From the IMG/VR virus record IMGVR_UViG_2713896784_000026: 7,004 nucleotides of DNA; one strand, 5' to 3'. Positions 1-5,014 of this stretch are shown piece by piece (positions within the stretch are counted from its first letter, which is position 1; each line of letters opens with the position of its first letter). The notes beneath the pieces are model-generated. The model saw nothing but the letters and a program-made list of their open reading frames with translations, was not told where the DNA came from and searched no databases. The DNA comes from a virus (lineage: Duplodnaviria; Heunggongvirae; Uroviricota; Caudoviricetes). The translations under genes and the position numbers were made by a program.

Positions 1-1469
1 ATCCATTTCGGATCATTCGGGTCGCTAATCCCTTCAACAAATTCTCCGCGAGAGGCAGCCAGTAATTTGTCTGCATCGACAGGATTTTGGGGCGGAATGT
101 TTTTCCTGGCTTCATGGAGTTCTGCCCGCAGTTTCTGATATTTCGCATCAACAGAATTTATCTGTGGCTGAGCATCCATCGACTGCGTGTCCTGATTATG
201 TTCAGTTGTATCCGGTTCCACTGCTTCAGTCGTTGCCTGTTCATCTGCCATTGCGCCAGATGGCTGCGGTTTTTCTTCATCATCCTGTTTTCCTTCTTTT
301 GTTACACGCTGCGGCATTGGAGCAGAGGAGCGACCGCAGGCAATATCCACGATTTCTGGATCAGGGTTGGCATGGTCGGTTTCGGTCAGTACTTTGTTCA
401 GATATTCGGTAACACGGTGGGGAGTAGCCTCGATACCAATTGGTGCTTCTTTCACGGACGCAACCACTATCGCGCGGGAATAATCCAGGTGACCAGGCAT
501 GGCGATGAATTTGTCACGAAAAACAGAAAAGGGCGGCTTATTCTCTGAAACGATTTCTTCAATGCGTTTGGCGTGTGCCGGATGTGGATTGTAAATATCG
601 ATGTCCATTGAACGGGCCAGAACGCCAGCGGCAACGTCACGTTCTACTGACGCATCATCGTGGACAAAACCTTCACCGCGATCGGTAAGAATTCCTCCGC
701 CAGCATTAGCGCCGGATGGCGTGCGGCTGATGCGTAAAACACGATTTCCTTTCATCCACTCTTTTGTCAGCAGACCTCGATCGGTATAGTCAGCGTCCAG
801 GTATGCTTCGAAAAAAGCAGTCATTAACCCCAGACTGGAATTAACGGGATTAGGGAAAACTTTGTCTGTGTCGCGTACCAGTTTGTGAAGGTCGCGAATC
901 TCCAGCGGGTCGAGCAGCTTTGTGTTGTGGGAAATAGCCAGGGCAGTAACAGCAGGCAGTTCTTCAGCTCGTGCGATATGTAATGCCTGAAGTTCTTCCC
1001 GTGAAACGTGCGTTACCGGTTTTTCGCTGCCATGTTGCGCAAGCCAGCGAATGGGCAGTTCCTGACCGGAAATCGGCAGGAGCATATTATCCTCAATCTC
1101 AGCCATGTCTTCGCCATTGACGTTGGTATTGTCAGAGCTGGCTGGTTTGTCCTGAACTGAGGGGGAAGGCGCTATAAATATCATTGTGATGCCATCTTCC
1201 CCGCCTTTTTCATAGCGGTTGCAGAATTCAGTATCGAACACACCTTCAGGCGGCAGGTCATTAACAATGGGCAAATTCACGCGAACAGGTTTTTTGAAAT
1301 CCTCTTCGTCAAATCCAGCATCGTCCATTGCGACAACACCCCGTGATATTGCAACCGATAATTTTTTTGCTGTGCGCCAGTAAAAACCGCCTTTAATCCC
1401 AAGGCGTTTTCTGACTTTGTCATTTTTGGCTTCGTAATACAGTGCAATTTCTTCTTTATCAGTGCTCAT
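1..1469 (-). CDS. recE: Exodeoxyribonuclease VIII (RecE)-like protein, N-terminal ~489 codons; gene continues beyond the left edge of the window
   Basis: Minus-strand frame open from ATG at 1469..1467 to position 1; codon phase checked at both ends ([36 protein letters not shown]... and ...[20 protein letters not shown]). GAGG lies 7 nt upstream of the ATG. Stretches such as [40 protein letters not shown] match my memory of the dispensable N-terminal region of Rac RecE. Not listed in the ORF track, presumably because it is truncated by the window edge. The plus-strand ORFs at 87..789 are antisense to it. Confidence 0.65.
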
Positions 1470-2098: not shown

Positions 2099-2146
2099 CT
2101 TTAAAAAGGGCGGCAGAGCAGTCACGGAGTAAAACTGATACCGCCA

Positions 2147-2200
2147 NNNNNNNNNNNNNNNNNNNNNNNNNNNNNNNNNNNNNNNNNNNNNNNNNNNNNN
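2147..2200. other. Run of 54 ambiguous bases (N); masked or unsequenced segment
   Basis: Read directly. Lies in the ORF-poor segment between 1936 and 2419. Confidence 1.
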
Positions 2201-2419
2201 TTGCCACAACCGGAAGCGCACGGTCGACGAAAATTTAACGACAGGCTATCTATGAACCAGCTACCTCGCCGTGCGCTTTCGCGTTATGGTCTGACTTTTC
2301 AGGGAAATATCCTTTCAGTAAACTGTCAGTGCCGTATGCTCACCCGTGTCCGGCGCACGCACTCCACCTCACCCGTGGAGAACTCCTTAATTACCAACCT
2401 TAGCTTCGTTGGTTAGCTA

Positions 2420-2638
2420 TTAACGCGGGTATGTAATCATTCTGGCAATGCTTAATGCCGCTGCTTTTTCCAGATTGGTGATATCCTGCTCCAGAGCGGA
2501 CAGATTTTCAGCCTGCTTAGCCCTGGCTTCATTGGCCCATTTCAGATCCTGCGCTGCATTAATTTTCTGGTGCATCCACTCATAAAGTTCATCATCGGTA
2601 TAGTCTGGCGCGATGATGACGGGTTCTCGTTTCTGCAT
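2420..2638 (-). CDS. Hypothetical 72-aa protein; by position (last small gene of the leftward operon before the immunity genes) possibly a Kil/KilR-like host-interaction protein
   Basis: ATG at 2638..2636 preceded by a strong SD (minus-strand reading ACAAGGAGCCGACATG). Codon usage looks strongly coding (CTG, GAA, CAG, AAA, ACC). Predicted helical protein MQKREPVIIAPDYTDDELYEWMHQKINAAQ... The kil-like assignment is by synteny only. Confidence 0.7.
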   Translation of the reverse strand: MQKREPVIIAPDYTDDELYEWMHQKINAAQDLKWANEARAKQAENLSALEQDITNLEKAAALSIARMITYPR

Positions 2639-2730
2639 GTCGGCTCCTTGTGGTTAGCGTTGCCTGCTTTTAACCACGTCAGGCGAGGTGGTATCCTCTG
2701 AGGGGTCTGTTACTCGAGAGGAAATTGGTT

Positions 2731-2931
2731 ATGAATACAATCAAGTTTTCTTGCCCAGAATGTGGTGGCGAAGTCTTTGACACATCCTTTAAGCCGCAGG
2801 GCTCTGACAGTTTCGCGGGAGCCATCTGCAAAAATTGTGGTCACCTTGTAACTGAAGATGAGTCCTCGCAGTTCGATGACGAAATCGTTGACAATATCTT
2901 CGGTGCACTCACCAGAGACTTTCTGAAGTAA
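2731..2931 (+). CDS. Small zinc-ribbon protein (66 aa), C-P-x-C-G ... C-x-x-C-G with an acidic C-terminal tail
   Basis: ATG at 2731 with GAGG 9 nt upstream (2718..2721). Two canonical zinc knuckles, CPECGG at residues 8-13 and CKNCGH at 33-38, then the acidic tail TEDESSQFDDEIVDNIF. The track ORF starts 6 nt earlier at TTG. The minus-strand ORF 2710..3066 is the exact antisense register, which is why it also looks open. Confidence 0.6.
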   Translation: MNTIKFSCPECGGEVFDTSFKPQGSDSFAGAICKNCGHLVTEDESSQFDDEIVDNIFGALTRDFLK

Positions 2932-2977
2932 AGGCGCATACCGCTTAGTTACCGCTCTGATAACTCTTACCTGTCCT

Positions 2978-3024
2978 GCAATGGCGCTGATGTCAATATA
3001 AAGCGCCATTGCTGCTTCTTTGCC
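2978..3024 (+). terminator. Hairpin (11-bp perfect stem 2978..2988 / 3002..3012, 13-nt loop) followed by TGCTTCTTTGCC; candidate terminator for the zinc-ribbon gene
   Basis: gcaatggcgct ... agcgccattgc are exact reverse complements, 47 nt downstream of the zinc-ribbon stop. The T-tract is only moderate and the loop is large, so this is a weak intrinsic-terminator call. Confidence 0.35.
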
Positions 3025-3243
3025 GATCCCGGGATGCCTTCCATTCTGATGTTTGACTTCGCCCACTGAGAAACCCTCTGTTTCCCCTTAACGCCGGGGT
3101 AGCGGAACAAAAAACTGCTGCATAGTTATTAAAGTTGAACCCTGCCGTCATGTTCATACGCCTCGGGCTGGCTACTTAACCCCTGACCACTGCCGGGTAA
3201 CTCGAAGTATTTCCCTGCGTTCTGTGGGGCGGGGTGGGTTGGT

Positions 3244-3290
3244 ATTTTTAGTTTAATAAACATTAAACTTAAGTCAAGTAAAAACTAAAC
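3244..3290 (-). promoter_or_regulatory. pL/oL-like leftward promoter with operator-like sites: -35 TTGACT (3277..3272), 16-bp spacer, -10 TAAACT (3255..3250)
   Basis: The 18-bp site GTTTAATAAACATTAAAC (3251..3268) has GTTTA/TAAAC inverted arms and closely resembles the sites in the 4226..4322 region. A partial second site lies at 3273..3290. Hexamers were read by eye; no TSS data. Confidence 0.4.
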
Positions 3291-3300
3291 CGCGGGACAT

Positions 3301-3339
3301 AACAAACACAACGCTTTTGATAAAGTCGTTGCGGTTGTT
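3301..3339 (-). terminator. Imperfect hairpin just downstream of the parE stop; possible weak terminator of the regulator-antitoxin-toxin operon
   Basis: Minus-strand RNA AACAACCGCAACG - 13-nt loop - CGUUGUGUUUGUU pairs at 12 of 13 positions (one G-U wobble, one mismatch). The U-tract is not immediately adjacent, hence low confidence. Confidence 0.25.
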
Positions 3340-3361
3340 ATGTTTCTATTGGTAGTGAAAG

Positions 3362-3640
3362 TTAGGGAAACTGGCGTCTTGCGTGGATCACGTTTACTAC
3401 TTCAACGCTTGATGTTGTTACGCGGTATAGAATTATATAGTTAGGGTGGGCTACAATCTCACGCAAGCCAGGTACTCTGTCGCTTGGTGGGTATAAATAC
3501 GGATGTTCGGATAACGGCAGCACACAACCCCTTAATCGCTGCCATAAGCGTTCAGCCGCATCTATGTCGAAACGAGCAATATAACTAGTTATATCATCTA
3601 GGTCGGTATCTGCGCTTTCAAGCCATAACACGGGTAACAT
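3362..3640 (-). CDS. parE2: ParE-family type II toxin (92 aa; ParE2-like)
   Basis: The translation from the internal ATG at 3640..3638 (MLPVLWLESADTDLDDITSYIARFDIDAAERLWQRL...YIILYRVTTSSVEVVNVIHARRQFP) has the RelE/ParE-fold pattern. That ATG lies 1 nt after the TAA of the upstream antitoxin gene, indicating coupling. The 124-aa track ORF from 3736 would overlap the antitoxin gene out of frame and is rejected. Confidence 0.85.
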   Translation of the reverse strand: MLPVLWLESADTDLDDITSYIARFDIDAAERLWQRLRGCVLPLSEHPYLYPPSDRVPGLREIVAHPNYIILYRVTTSSVEVVNVIHARRQFP

Positions 3641-3641
3641 T

Positions 3642-3833
3642 TTACTGCTTGCTCCGTTCCTTGCGCATCTTAGCAAAGCGTTCTGCCATTCTGCGCTCAA
3701 CTTCGTCATGGGGAATTGCTGGGCGCGGATCTGCAAGGCTCGTTGCTACTTTCGCACGCAGCCATTCGTTGTAACTGTTTTCTTGTTCAATGGTTTCAAA
3801 TTCAGAAACCATTGGTGAAAGGGCTCTATTCAT
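3642..3833 (-). CDS. paaA2: Small highly charged antitoxin (63 aa), PaaA2-like partner of ParE
   Basis: ATG at 3833..3831 preceded by a strong SD (minus-strand reading CCGGAGGAAACATG). The product MNRALSPMVSEFETIEQENSYNEWLRAKVATSLADPRPAIPHDEVERRMAERFAKMRKERSKQ is 63 aa, matching the length I recall for PaaA2. Sits immediately upstream of parE. The track's longer 81-aa form lacks an SD. Confidence 0.75.
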   Translation of the reverse strand: MNRALSPMVSEFETIEQENSYNEWLRAKVATSLADPRPAIPHDEVERRMAERFAKMRKERSKQ

Positions 3834-3853
3834 GTTTCCTCCGGTTTTATAAC

Positions 3854-4225
3854 TCAGGCGCGGCGGCATTTTTGCGCCGCAATCCATCTCGCTATGAGAT
3901 CTTCCATTGATTCTTTTTTCTGCTTTAACTCGCTGATTATCTGGCGTTGCTCATCCTCAGGGAAGGCTGAAAAAATCTGCAATAATTCCAGTTGATTAGA
4001 CGTTAACCCTGCATGTGGTGGAGAACCCCCCGGTTGTTCTGCGTATTCCGCATCCAGATACCCTTCCGGCATCCCGTATGTTTGCTCTATTCTTCTGGCA
4101 GCCTTTTCTCCAAACGAGGCTCTCCCACTCATTAGTTGAGATAGGTAGCTCTTCTCTTTGGGTGGCAGAGTTTTATCTTTAAACCACTCCTTGAGACGTA
4201 AACGGCGAATTTCTTTTTTTTGCAT
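3854..4225 (-). CDS. paaR2: HTH (Cro/CI-type) transcriptional regulator, PaaR2-like; occupies the prophage repressor (CI-equivalent) position and is first gene of the TA operon
   Basis: N-terminal HTH (KSYLSQLMSGRASFGEKAARRIEQTYGMPEGYLD). The C-terminal part resembles DicA-type repressors (SNQLELLQIFSAFPEDEQRQIISEL). Divergent from the Cro-like gene. Start placed at ATG 4225..4223 (123 aa): the GTG at 4288 used by the track would extend the protein across the operator region. There is no SD before 4225, consistent with a leaderless mRNA. Confidence 0.7.
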   Translation of the reverse strand: MQKKEIRRLRLKEWFKDKTLPPKEKSYLSQLMSGRASFGEKAARRIEQTYGMPEGYLDAEYAEQPGGSPPHAGLTSNQLELLQIFSAFPEDEQRQIISELKQKKESMEDLIARWIAAQKCRRA

Positions 4226-4322
4226 GTGGTAATTATCTTTAGTAATCACTAAACAAGCAAATACTTGACTTAATGGTTTATTAAACACTAAACTCGCAAA
4301 AAAACACTAAACCGAGGAAGGT
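4226..4322. promoter_or_regulatory. Divergent promoter/operator region between the repressor-like gene and the Cro-like gene
   Basis: Three 18-bp sites with conserved right half ...CACTAAAC: 4237..4254 CTTTAGTAATCACTAAAC, 4276..4293 GTTTATTAAACACTAAAC, 4295..4312 (right half only). Rightward promoter: -35 TTGACT 4265..4270, -10 TAAACT 4289..4294, then SD GAGGA 4314..4318 and ATG 4323. Leftward promoter: -35 TTGCTT (complement of 4255..4260), 17-bp spacer, -10 GATAAT (complement of 4232..4237), which puts the start about at the ATG at 4225. Confidence 0.55.
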
Positions 4323-4625
4323 ATGACATTAAAAGAGTTTATTAAATCATTAAGGGTTGGTGATGCTAAGAAATTCGCGGCCAGACTTGGTGTATCGCCA
4401 TCTTACTTATCGCAAATGGCGTCTGGACGAACAGCTATATCTCCAACCCGCGCCCTTATGATCGAATCTGCGACGGAAGGCCAAGTAAGTAGGGCGGAGC
4501 TACGACCCCATGATTGGGAGCTTATTTGGCCTGAGTATGCGAGCGGCATTCGTTTGGGGCAAACACATGTAGTTCATGCTGAAGGTGATTGTAGTGCATG
4601 CTTATCTGATGGAGTTGATTCATGA
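4323..4625 (+). CDS. ydaS: Cro-like HTH protein, YdaS family (100 aa)
   Basis: SD GAGGA 5 nt upstream of ATG 4323. HTH with recognition-helix motif SPSYLSQMASGR, close to that of the divergent regulator. Its TGA overlaps the next ATG (ATGA at 4622..4625). Confidence 0.8.
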   Translation: MTLKEFIKSLRVGDAKKFAARLGVSPSYLSQMASGRTAISPTRALMIESATEGQVSRAELRPHDWELIWPEYASGIRLGQTHVVHAEGDCSACLSDGVDS

Positions 4626-5014
4626 AAATCAAGCATGAACACATCCGCATGGCGATGAATGTCTGGGCGCATCCGGACGGCGAAAAAGTACCGGCTGCGA
4701 AAATTACCAAAGCGTATTTCGAGCNNNNNNNNNNNNNNNNNNNNNNNNNNNNNNNNNNNNNNNNNNNNNNNNNNGATAAAGACACCCCTGATGCTGTTGA
4801 AAAAATGCAGGCTCTGTTACCGGCGATCGAAAAGGCGATGCCGCCTTTGCTGGTGGCCCGTATGCGCAGCCACAGTTCTGAATATTACCGTGAGATCGTC
4901 GAACGGAGGGATCGGCTGGTGAAGGATGTCGATGATTTTGTTGCGTCAGCGGTTGTTTTGTATGACCAGATGAATCGCGGCGGCCCGGCAGGGAATGCTG
5001 TGGTGATGCACTAA
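4622..5014 (+). CDS. ydaT: YdaT-like protein (130 codons; proposed CII-like regulator / toxic when overexpressed); internal 50 bases are masked N
   Basis: MKIKHEHIRMAMNVWAHPDGEKVPAAKITKAYFE...; translationally coupled to the ydaS-like gene. The frame is continuous across the N run only if the masked length is true to the original. Confidence 0.65.
   Translation: MKIKHEHIRMAMNVWAHPDGEKVPAAKITKAYFEXXXXXXXXXXXXXXXXXDKDTPDAVEKMQALLPAIEKAMPPLLVARMRSHSSEYYREIVERRDRLVKDVDDFVASAVVLYDQMNRGGPAGNAVVMH
4725..4774. other. Run of 50 ambiguous bases (N) inside the ydaT-like gene
   Basis: Read directly. Confidence 1.

What the first reader, a model, noticed from the sequence alone, without database searches (positions are those of the whole stretch)
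3362..4322. Three-component ParE toxin-antitoxin operon sits in the prophage repressor slot
The minus-strand operon is an HTH regulator (123 aa), then a 63-aa charged antitoxin, then a 92-aa ParE toxin, with 20-nt and 1-nt intergenic spacings. It matches what I recall of paaR2-paaA2-parE2 from E. coli O157:H7 prophages. The regulator is divergent from the Cro-like gene, the position lambda gives to cI. If it is the lysogenic repressor, every repressor transcript also carries the addiction module, coupling prophage maintenance to post-segregational killing. Whether it acts as the immunity repressor is the open question.
Basis: partly seen in the sequence, partly recalled or inferred. Interest (0 to 1): 0.6.

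Follow-up and report, generated by a model that had tools for sequence, protein, structure and literature searches.

The report
Known PaaR2-PaaA2-ParE2 prophage immunity operon
This is the paaR2-paaA2-parE2 operon of E. coli O157:H7-type lambdoid prophages, a repressor gene co-transcribed with a toxin-antitoxin pair, and a 2021 study of this same sequence already showed that the regulator behaves like the lambda CI repressor, so the finding is correct but not new.

Summary
On the minus strand lie paaR2 (3854-4225, 123 aa), paaA2 (3642-3833, 63 aa) and parE2 (3362-3640, 92 aa), separated by 20 nt and 1 nt. ParE2 and PaaA2 are 100% identical to solved structures 5CW7 and 3ZBE. PaaR2 residues 1-66 are identical to 7NKV, which was deposited as "Phage repressor protein CI". 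Bases 2201-4724 are 100% identical to E. coli O157:H7 chromosomes.

PaaR2 is a CI analogue translated from a leaderless PRM-type transcript. It represses PR and PL, competes with YdaS (Cro analogue), and is boosted by YdaT (CII analogue) through a PRE-type promoter. The switch is bistable and the locus is addictive. I mapped all of these elements onto the window.

My small additions:
- A plaque-forming temperate coliphage, Evi, carries the same cassette.
- A Klebsiella phage has a PaaR2 homologue without the toxin-antitoxin pair.
- A Burkholderia phage fuses the PaaR2 DNA-binding domain to an S24 peptidase.
- The cassette moves between prophages as one mosaic block.

True superinfection immunity and induction in a viable phage remain untested. 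Verdict: already known, low interest.

The parts
3854..4225 (-). paaR2: 123-aa CI-analogue repressor. It has an N-terminal HTH DNA-binding domain and a C-terminal helical oligomerisation domain, and it has no S24 peptidase domain.
   Evidence: Residues 1-66 are identical to PDB 7NKV/8C3K, deposited as 'Phage repressor protein CI'. PHROG 5736 'transcriptional regulator' matches at 6.9e-39. The C-terminus (residues 72-119) resembles the DicA C-terminus, but below the curated cut-off. The paper confirmed the N-terminus MQKKE by protein sequencing. Pfam has no hit, hence no Peptidase_S24.
3642..3833 (-). paaA2: 63-aa antitoxin without a DNA-binding domain.
   Evidence: Residues 2-63 are 100% identical to the PaaA2 chain of PDB 3ZBE/5CW7. 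Pfam PaaA2 PF21217 matches at 1e-19. A GGAGG ribosome-binding site lies in the 20-nt gap upstream.
3362..3640 (-). parE2: 92-aa ParE-family toxin.
   Evidence: 100% identical over all 92 residues to PDB 5CW7 chain B. Pfam ParE_toxin PF05016 matches at 1.9e-16.
4226..4322 (.). 97-bp OR-type control region. It holds the leftward leaderless PRM933P (-35 at 4260-4255, -10 at 4237-4232, start at 4225), the rightward PR933P (4265-4294) and repeated operators of half-site GTTTAGTAA.
   Evidence: The length is exactly the 97 bp of the paper. PR-like TTGACT-18-TAAACT was found. The half-site with at most 1 mismatch gives 7 hits in the window against 1.0 expected, 0 of 200 shuffles reaching 7; four of the hits lie at 4237-4286. 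Direct repeat D1 lies at 4238-4261 and 4277-4300. The PRM hexamer positions are my inference from the published start site.
3247..3295 (-). PL933P/OL-type region downstream of parE2: a leftward promoter (3277-3250) with the same hexamers as PR, plus operator repeats.
   Evidence: TTGACT-16-TAAACT lies on the minus strand. Half-site hits lie at 3251-3261. The segment 3251-3280 is an inverted copy of 4262-4286 (I1 and I3). The paper shows that PaaR2 and YdaS repress PL933P about 100-fold.
3297..3343 (-). Hairpin between the parE2 stop codon and PL/OL. It is the likely end of the operon transcript, in the position of lambda t_imm. This is an inference.
   Evidence: Two 22-nt arms with a 3-nt loop (I2). 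The RNA folds at -24 kcal/mol, z = -4.67, and 0 of 200 shuffles fold as well. The U tract is interrupted, so its function as a terminator is not shown.
4323..4625 (+). ydaS: 100-aa Cro analogue, divergent from paaR2.
   Evidence: Pfam YdaS_toxin at 3.3e-12 and HTH_3 at 6e-07. PHROG 35 'transcriptional repressor' matches. The paper gives footprinting and reporter data.
4615..4632 (.). YdaT main operator OM (TTGATTCATGAAAATCAA) at the ydaS/ydaT junction. It is associated with PRE933P, the second promoter that feeds the paaR2-paaA2-parE2 operon.
   Evidence: An exact match to TTGATTN6AATCAA, and the only hit in the window even when 2 mismatches are allowed. DNase footprinting is reported in PMC9986795. 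YdaT-dependent PRE activity is reported in PMC8630535.
4622..5014 (+). ydaT: CII analogue. It reads as 130 aa here only because a masked N run (4725-4774) replaces 83 nt; relatives have 141 aa.
   Evidence: Relatives carry 83 nt across the N run. RefSeq annotates the 426-nt gene in O157:H7 as 'toxin YdaT family protein'.

Best explanation
The region is the immunity module of a CP-933P/Sp12-type lambdoid prophage. PaaR2 is the CI-analogue repressor. Its gene is transcribed leftward as a leaderless mRNA from a weak PRM-type promoter in the 97-bp OR region, and the same transcript continues through paaA2 and parE2, which occupy the place that rexA-rexB hold in lambda. PaaR2 binds repeated operators at OR and at a second OL/PL site just beyond parE2. 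At low levels it represses the rightward promoter PR (ydaS-ydaT and the replication genes) and the leftward promoter PL (toward dicB/DicF-type genes) and stimulates its own promoter; at high levels it represses its own promoter too. YdaS (Cro analogue) competes for the same operators, which gives two heritable states. YdaT (CII analogue) binds at the ydaS/ydaT junction and switches on a PRE-type promoter that also reads into the operon, so the toxin-antitoxin pair is transcribed in both states. PaaA2 is labile (degraded by ClpAP/ClpXP) and ParE2 is stable, so any cell that loses the cassette, by excision, deletion or replacement of the immunity region, is poisoned by ParE2. Shown in the literature for this exact sequence: operon structure, leaderless start, operator binding, repression and activation, bistability, plasmid stabilisation. 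Inferred: the hairpin at 3297-3343 as the end of the transcript, and that the pair protects the immunity region of a live phage.
For: Identity of the parts: matches to solved PaaR2, PaaA2 and ParE2 structures; Pfam; 100% DNA identity to O157:H7 chromosomes. Regulatory anatomy in the window:
- The intergenic region is exactly 97 bp.
- PR and PL share the hexamers TTGACT/TAAACT.
- Operator half-sites are enriched 7 against 1.0 expected and lie at or beside OR and OL.
- The OL segment is an inverted copy of the OR segment.
- The YdaT operator matches exactly at 4615-4632.
- The scan found no promoter-like or terminator-like site between paaR2 and paaA2.
Experiments on the same sequence: PMC8630535 and PMC9986795.
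Comparative support obtained here:
- Temperate, plaque-forming phage Evi carries the cassette at 98.3% identity with all three genes intact.
- Among 45 IMG/VR prophage contigs fetched by the paaR2 5' end, 43 hold a full-length parE2 (one with a premature stop) directly downstream of paaA2; the rest are cut short by the end of the stored DNA.
- Klebsiella phage 5 LV-2017 has a 45%-identical PaaR2 homologue divergent from YdaS/YdaT homologues, and no PaaA2 or ParE2 match was found in the stretch examined.
- A Burkholderia phage fuses a 66%-identical PaaR2 N-domain to Peptidase_S24, the classic CI architecture.
Against: CP-933P is defective, so superinfection immunity and induction after loss of PaaR2 have never been measured. 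PaaR2 has no S24 domain and is reported not to respond to mitomycin C, so how or whether the switch is flipped in nature is unknown. In the plasmid reporter most exponentially growing cells were in the ydaST-on state rather than the repressor-on state. No ParE2 activity was detected in either state, so the benefit of the pair is shown only by plasmid-loss assays. My -35/-10 assignment for PRM and the terminator role of the hairpin are inferences from sequence.
Confidence: 0.93

Rival explanations
1. PaaR2 is only the dedicated regulator of a three-component toxin-antitoxin system, in effect a 'split antitoxin' whose DNA-binding half became a separate gene. On this view its position next to a Cro-like gene is incidental and it has no role in prophage control.
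For: This was the original 2010 framing, as cited. PaaA2 has no DNA-binding domain. The authors themselves raise the 'split antitoxin' idea. PaaR2 lacks the S24 domain of classic CI repressors.
Against: PaaR2 represses PR933P and a distant PL933P that drive non-toxin-antitoxin genes, and it competes with YdaS for shared operators. OL- and OR-type operator sets flank the operon in the window. A full-length PaaR2 homologue sits in the same slot of a Klebsiella phage with no PaaA2 or ParE2 match in the stretch examined. The PaaR2 N-domain occurs fused to Peptidase_S24 in a Burkholderia phage. The regulator family therefore exists independently of the toxin-antitoxin pair.
Confidence: 0.04
2. The toxin-antitoxin pair in the rexAB slot works mainly as a phage-exclusion or abortive-infection module that protects the lysogen against other phages, as RexAB does in lambda, rather than as an addiction module for the prophage.
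For: It occupies the same position as rexA-rexB, as PMC9986795 states. It is expressed constitutively from the repressor transcript in both states. From general knowledge rather than a test here, several type II toxin-antitoxin systems have been shown to act in phage defence.
Against: None of the three proteins matches any PADLOC defence model. No exclusion phenotype is reported in the papers read. The one phenotype that has been demonstrated is stabilisation by post-segregational killing.
Confidence: 0.03

Closest known systems
paaR2-paaA2-parE2 of cryptic prophage CP-933P (E. coli O157:H7 EDL933) and Sp12 (Sakai): Hallez et al. 2010 Mol Microbiol 76:719; Jurenas et al. 2021 mBio, PMC8630535
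   Same: It is the same locus. ParE2 and PaaA2 are identical to the solved proteins, PaaR2 is identical over its crystallised domain, and the 97-bp control region, PL/OL region, ydaS and the YdaT operator are identical. Bases 2201-4724 are 100% identical to O157:H7 chromosomes.
   Different: The flanks differ. The right arm is 97.9% identical to O157:H7 strain TR01, and most of the left arm (the exonuclease, dicB and DicF side) is a different mosaic. The window therefore comes from another lambdoid prophage that carries the same immunity cassette.
Bacteriophage lambda immunity region (cI-rexA-rexB between OR and OL, with cro and cII)
   Same: The layout is the same. A leftward repressor gene with a leaderless PRM transcript is co-transcribed with two accessory genes, lies between two operator/promoter sets, and is divergent from cro- and cII-type genes followed by replication genes. 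The repressor is reported to form octamers and the switch is bistable.
   Different: There is no detectable sequence similarity to lambda CI. PaaR2 has no S24 autocleavage domain, so no RecA/SOS-triggered induction is expected. The paper describes four inverted repeats and three pseudosymmetrical operators at OR, rather than lambda's three operators. The cII analogue is a POU-type tetramer, YdaT. The accessory genes are a toxin-antitoxin pair rather than RexAB.
paaR1-paaA1-parE1 type trio (CP-933M type), seen here in IMG/VR loci L010, L012 and L020
   Same: The three-gene order is the same. PaaA is 73-77% and ParE 67-68% identical, and the regulator shares the C-terminal domain.
   Different: The regulator has a different XRE-type N-terminal DNA-binding domain, and only its C-terminal part aligns with PaaR2 (42% identity over residues 28-123). 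The Cro partner also differs. This points to a different operator specificity (heteroimmunity). Assigning these loci to CP-933M is my inference from the paper's statement that a homologue lies there.
DicA (Qin) and RacR (Rac) cryptic-prophage repressors of E. coli K-12
   Same: They occupy the same slot, divergent from ydaS/dicC-type Cro genes and upstream of dicB/kil-type genes. PaaR2 residues 72-119 weakly match the DicA C-terminus (NCBIfam NF007257, 28 bits). Weak tblastn hits to dicA genes in phage records give 27% identity.
   Different: The match is far below the DicA family cut-off of 101 bits. The N-terminal domains are unrelated in sequence. DicA and RacR are not followed by a toxin-antitoxin pair.

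Membership tests
PaaR2-PaaA2-ParE2 three-component toxin-antitoxin system | ParE-fold toxin of about 90 aa encoded as the last gene | tested here: met
   100% identical over 92 residues to PDB 5CW7_B. Pfam ParE_toxin matches at 60.9 bits against a cut-off of 23.
PaaR2-PaaA2-ParE2 three-component toxin-antitoxin system | Small PaaA2-type antitoxin without a DNA-binding domain, encoded immediately upstream of the toxin | tested here: met
   Residues 2-63 are 100% identical to PDB 3ZBE/5CW7. Pfam PaaA2 PF21217 matches at 70.7 bits against a cut-off of 27, and no HTH or RHH family matches. The gap to parE2 is 1 nt.
PaaR2-PaaA2-ParE2 three-component toxin-antitoxin system | Separate HTH regulator gene (PaaR2) as the first gene of the same transcription unit | tested here: met
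   Residues 1-66 are identical to PDB 7NKV. It lies on the same strand 20 nt upstream of paaA2, and the scan found no promoter-like or terminator-like site between them.
PaaR2-PaaA2-ParE2 three-component toxin-antitoxin system | Co-transcription, toxicity of ParE2, neutralisation by PaaA2, and post-segregational killing | not testable with these tools
   These were shown experimentally for this same sequence (the solved proteins are identical): Hallez 2010 as cited in PMC8630535, and Fig. S5 there.
Lambdoid immunity region (CI/Cro/CII switch) | Repressor gene divergent from a cro-type gene, with overlapping divergent promoters and repeated operators in between | tested here: met
   A 97-bp region holds the PR-like promoter, the inferred PRM hexamers and repeated half-sites enriched 7 against 1.0 expected. 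ydaS has YdaS/HTH_3 domains and a sub-threshold P22_Cro match.
Lambdoid immunity region (CI/Cro/CII switch) | A second operator/promoter set (OL/PL) on the far side of the repressor operon | tested here: met
   The minus-strand promoter at 3277-3250 has hexamers identical to PR. The segment 3251-3280 is an inverted copy of 4262-4286. Repression of PL933P is shown in the paper.
Lambdoid immunity region (CI/Cro/CII switch) | A CII-type activator with a PRE-type promoter reading back into the repressor gene | tested here: met
   The published YdaT operator occurs exactly at 4615-4632. Binding and activation are shown in PMC9986795 and PMC8630535.
Lambdoid immunity region (CI/Cro/CII switch) | LexA/CI-type S24 autocleavage domain that gives SOS-inducible derepression | tested here: not met
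   Pfam finds no domain in the 123-aa PaaR2. The paper states that it lacks the peptidase motif and is not reactive to mitomycin C. A Burkholderia phage relative of the N-domain does carry Peptidase_S24 at 2.2e-15.
Lambdoid immunity region (CI/Cro/CII switch) | The repressor confers superinfection immunity, and its loss induces the prophage | not testable with these tools
   This is not reported in the papers read, because CP-933P is defective. Phage Evi, a plaque-forming temperate phage with the same cassette, would allow the test.
DicA/RacR cryptic-prophage repressors | Sequence membership of the DicA family (NCBIfam NF007257) | tested here: not met
   Only the C-terminal 48 residues match, at 28.1 bits against a cut-off of 101. 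PaaR2 shares a position and a C-terminal domain with DicA but is not a family member.

The most novel reading that the evidence does not exclude
The cassette is active in live temperate phages and not only in the defective CP-933P; Evi is a candidate. PaaR2 has no RecA-cleavable domain, so such phages would use an SOS-independent route out of lysogeny, for example growth-phase-dependent switching between PaaR2 and YdaS, or an antirepressor. In that setting the co-transcribed ParE2 pair would police the immunity region, killing recombinants that swap in a heteroimmune region. The cassette travels as one block with a recurrent left breakpoint at about 3081, and heteroimmune variants exist that keep the same toxin-antitoxin pair (L015). 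Both observations are compatible with this reading but do not prove it.
Probability: 0.25. Interest if true: 0.45.

Novelty: already known. Interest (0 to 1): 0.1.

Why it matters
The locus shows that a toxin-antitoxin pair can be wired into a phage lysis-lysogeny switch instead of regulating itself, and that an accessory 'moron' slot in the repressor operon can hold an addiction module. That point has been published with experiments on this exact sequence (mBio 2021), and structures exist for all components. Re-finding it here adds nothing fundamental. The practical value of this check is modest. It confirms that the annotation should read PaaR2/PaaA2/ParE2 with YdaS as Cro analogue and YdaT as CII analogue; RefSeq still labels them 'hypothetical protein', 'RelB family antitoxin' and 'toxin YdaT'. 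It also points to phage Evi as a viable system in which true immunity and induction could finally be tested.

Tried and rejected
1. I looked for a promoter or terminator between paaR2 and paaA2 that would break the operon. The scan found none. The only internal minus-strand promoter-like site lies inside parE2 (3621-3593) and scores a weak 9 of 12.
2. I tested for a phage-defence annotation. PADLOC has no match for any of the three proteins.
3. Only a sub-threshold match to the C-terminal domain was found, so membership is rejected. RacR was not tested.
4. I tried to find the exact source of the window. No complete E. coli genome holds the whole window; the best covers 88% at 92.6% identity. 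A 42-mer from the left arm had no exact match in the species-representative genome collection. It did match 18 IMG/VR prophage contigs, but none of the fetched loci matches the whole window at about 100%. The window is one more mosaic.
5. I considered whether the longer alternative ORFs are the real genes (GTG 144 aa, ATG 81 aa, TTG 124 aa). I rejected this because N-terminal sequencing gave MQKKE for PaaR2 and the solved proteins start at the short forms.
6. I did not use the large protein-database searches or structure prediction. Identity to solved structures made them unnecessary.
Full report
**The observation**

- paaR2: 3854-4225, 123 aa.
- paaA2: 3642-3833, 63 aa.
- parE2: 3362-3640, 92 aa.

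A 20-nt gap containing a GGAGG ribosome-binding site precedes paaA2, and a single base separates paaA2 from parE2. The stretch 4226-4322 is a 97-bp intergenic region up to a divergent 100-aa HTH gene at 4323-4625 (+).

**Identity of the proteins**

ParE2 is 100% identical over all 92 residues to PDB 5CW7 chain B. PaaA2 residues 2-63 are 100% identical to the PaaA2 chain of 3ZBE/5CW7. PaaR2 residues 1-66 are identical to 7NKV/8C3K, a construct of the N-terminal domain deposited as "Phage repressor protein CI".

Pfam gives PaaA2 (PF21217, 1e-19) and ParE_toxin (PF05016, 1.9e-16). It assigns the divergent gene to YdaS/HTH_3, with a sub-threshold P22_Cro match. The DNA of 3200-4700 is 100% identical to many E. 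coli O157:H7 chromosomes, and 583 of 5426 complete E. coli genomes carry at least 80% of it.

In O157:H7 strain TR01 the neighbours are, on one side, a Zn-ribbon gene, ydfC, dicB, ydfD and an exonuclease gene, and on the other side ydaS, ydaT, an O-like HTH replication gene and a DnaC-like ATPase gene. This is the immunity and early region of a lambdoid prophage.

**What is already published on this exact sequence**

Jurenas et al. (mBio 2021, PMC8630535) studied the CP-933P locus and showed the following.
- 5'-RACE places the leftward start site on the paaR2 ATG. The mRNA is leaderless like lambda cI, and the protein N-terminus MQKKE was confirmed by sequencing.
- PaaR2 and YdaS footprint overlapping parts of the 97-bp region, which contains four 18-bp inverted repeats (half-site consensus GTTTAGTAA) and three pseudosymmetrical operators.
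- Both proteins repress PRM933P and PR933P. Low PaaR2 activates PRM and represses PR.
- A PL933P promoter with OL operators lies beyond parE2 and is repressed about 100-fold.
- YdaT activates a PRE933P promoter between ydaS and ydaT.
- A dual reporter is bistable and the state is inherited.
- The whole locus stabilises a mini-F plasmid as well as ccdAB does.
- PaaR2 lacks the peptidase motif and does not respond to mitomycin C.

Prolic-Kalinsek et al. (PMC9986795) solved the YdaT structure and mapped its main operator, TTGATTN6AATCAA. They state that paaA2-parE2 replace rexA-rexB and that PaaR2 replaces CI.

**Mapping those elements onto the window**

- The intergenic region is exactly 97 bp.
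- PR933P is TTGACT-18-TAAACT at 4265-4294 (+). PL933P has the same hexamers at 3277-3250 (-).
- From the published start site at 4225, I place the PRM -10 (GATAAT) at 4237-4232 and a weak -35 (TTGCTT) at 4260-4255, with a palindromic operator filling the spacer.
- GTTTAGTAA with at most 1 mismatch occurs 7 times against 1.0 expected, and none of 200 shuffles reached 7. Four hits lie at 4237-4286 (OR), two at 3251-3261 (OL) and one at 4337-4345, just inside ydaS.
- The OL segment 3251-3280 is an inverted copy of the OR segment 4262-4286.
- The YdaT operator is present exactly once, at 4615-4632, across the ydaS stop and ydaT start codons.
- A strong hairpin at 3297-3343 lies between the parE2 stop and PL (-24 kcal/mol, z = -4.67). 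It is where lambda has t_imm, but its function is inferred only.
- The scan found no promoter-like or terminator-like site between paaR2 and paaA2.

**Mechanism**

The repressor transcript, whether it starts at PRM or at PRE, carries paaA2 and parE2, so the pair is made whenever the immunity region is present. The paper found it transcribed in both states of the switch. PaaA2 is reported to be degraded by ClpAP/ClpXP. Loss of the cassette therefore frees ParE2 and kills or arrests the cell. The authors propose that this stabilises the prophage and its immunity region against rearrangement or replacement.

**What I could add**

1. The window is not CP-933P itself. Only 2201-4724 is 100% identical to O157:H7. 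The right arm is 97.9% identical and most of the left arm differs. No complete E. coli genome matches the whole window.
2. Among 45 IMG/VR prophage contigs that contain the paaR2 5' end, 26 share a left homology breakpoint at window 3078-3083. The cassette from OL/PL through parE2, paaA2, paaR2 and OR to ydaS therefore moves as one mosaic block.
3. In those contigs paaA2 and parE2 follow paaR2 wherever the stored DNA reaches far enough. One contig (L062) has a W33stop in ParE2. These contigs were retrieved by an exact 42-mer, so they are close relatives and not independent samples.
4. [quoted passage not shown] It has full structural, lysis and replication modules. It carries the cassette at 98.3% identity, with PaaR2 differing at 2 residues, PaaA2 at 1 and ParE2 at none. 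The module therefore exists in a viable phage.
5. Klebsiella phage 5 LV-2017 has a full-length PaaR2 homologue (45% identity) divergent from YdaS and YdaT homologues. No PaaA2 or ParE2 match was found in the stretch examined, and the conserved Zn-ribbon gene lies about 300 bp downstream of the repressor gene on the opposite strand.
6. Burkholderia phage vB_E177 has a 66%-identical PaaR2 N-domain fused to a Peptidase_S24 domain, next to a YdaS homologue.
7. Points 5 and 6 show that PaaR2 belongs to a genuine phage-repressor lineage that exists without the toxin-antitoxin pair. The pair is thus an accessory insertion, and the 'split antitoxin' view is unlikely.
8. The PaaR2 C-terminal domain weakly resembles that of DicA (28 bits against a cut-off of 101). 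It is shared with the PaaR1-type regulators, which have a different N-domain.

**Limits**

True superinfection immunity and induction on loss of PaaR2 have not been measured, because CP-933P is defective. PaaR2 has no autocleavage domain, so the natural trigger of the switch is unknown. No ParE2 activity was detected in either transcriptional state. PADLOC gives no defence-system match.

**Verdict**

Interest is low. The remaining open point, real immunity and induction in a live phage, could be tested with phage Evi.

Noticed in passing
window 2147-2200 and 4725-4774: There are two masked N runs of 54 and 50 bases. In all close relatives the corresponding stretches are about 136 and 83 nt long, so the masks do not preserve length. 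ydaT reads as 130 aa here but is 141 aa in relatives.
   Followed up: partly
window 2108-2146 (-): A DicF small RNA (Rfam RF00039, 51.8 bits, above the gathering score) matches from model positions 14-52 of 52. Its 5' end falls in the adjacent N run. dicB-like (1747-1935, -) and ydfD-like (1562-1750, -) ORFs follow on the same strand, downstream of PL.
   Followed up: partly
window 2710-3066: The annotations conflict. RefSeq calls a + strand Zn-ribbon gene here ('ECs_2282 family putative zinc-binding protein', ORF at 2725-2931), convergent with parE2 and antisense to any PL transcript. The Evi record instead annotates the overlapping minus-strand ORF (the 118-aa ORF at 2710-3066 in the window). 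The Zn-ribbon ORF is conserved next to the PaaR2 homologue in Klebsiella phage 5 LV-2017 (76 aa), which favours the + strand gene.
   Followed up: partly
L015 3543-5227 (IMGVR_UViG_3300037678_000004): This is a variant cassette. PaaR2 is only 74% and YdaS 75% identical, while PaaA2 is 94% and ParE2 91% identical. A second regulator ORF, with an XRE-type N-domain and the same C-terminal domain as PaaR2, lies between paaR2 and paaA2 and overlaps the paaA2 start. It may be a heteroimmune recombinant or a fusion of PaaR1- and PaaR2-type units.
   Followed up: no
L062 3631-3909 (IMGVR_UViG_2648501841_000011): This ParE2 allele has a premature stop at codon 33 (W33stop), while PaaR2 and PaaA2 are intact. 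It is a natural toxin-null version of the cassette.
   Followed up: no
window about 3078-3083: There is a recurrent homology breakpoint. In 26 of 45 related prophage contigs, similarity to the window begins here, about 170 bp beyond the PL -10 hexamer, with different left arms. It marks the left edge of the exchangeable immunity cassette.
   Followed up: partly
L004 2501-3163 (Burkholderia phage vB_E177) and L003 2501-2857 (Klebsiella phage 5 LV-2017): The PaaR2 N-terminal DNA-binding domain (66% identity over 58 aa) occurs fused to a Peptidase_S24 domain in a Burkholderia phage. A full-length 45%-identical homologue occurs without any PaaA2 or ParE2 match in a Klebsiella phage.
   Followed up: yes
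window 1-1466 (-): A long minus-strand ORF starts at 1466 and runs off the left end of the window. It is a RecE-like (exonuclease VIII-like) gene, to judge from the annotation of similar DNA. It is a different allele from the IS-disrupted exonuclease pseudogenes of O157:H7 strain TR01.
   Followed up: no
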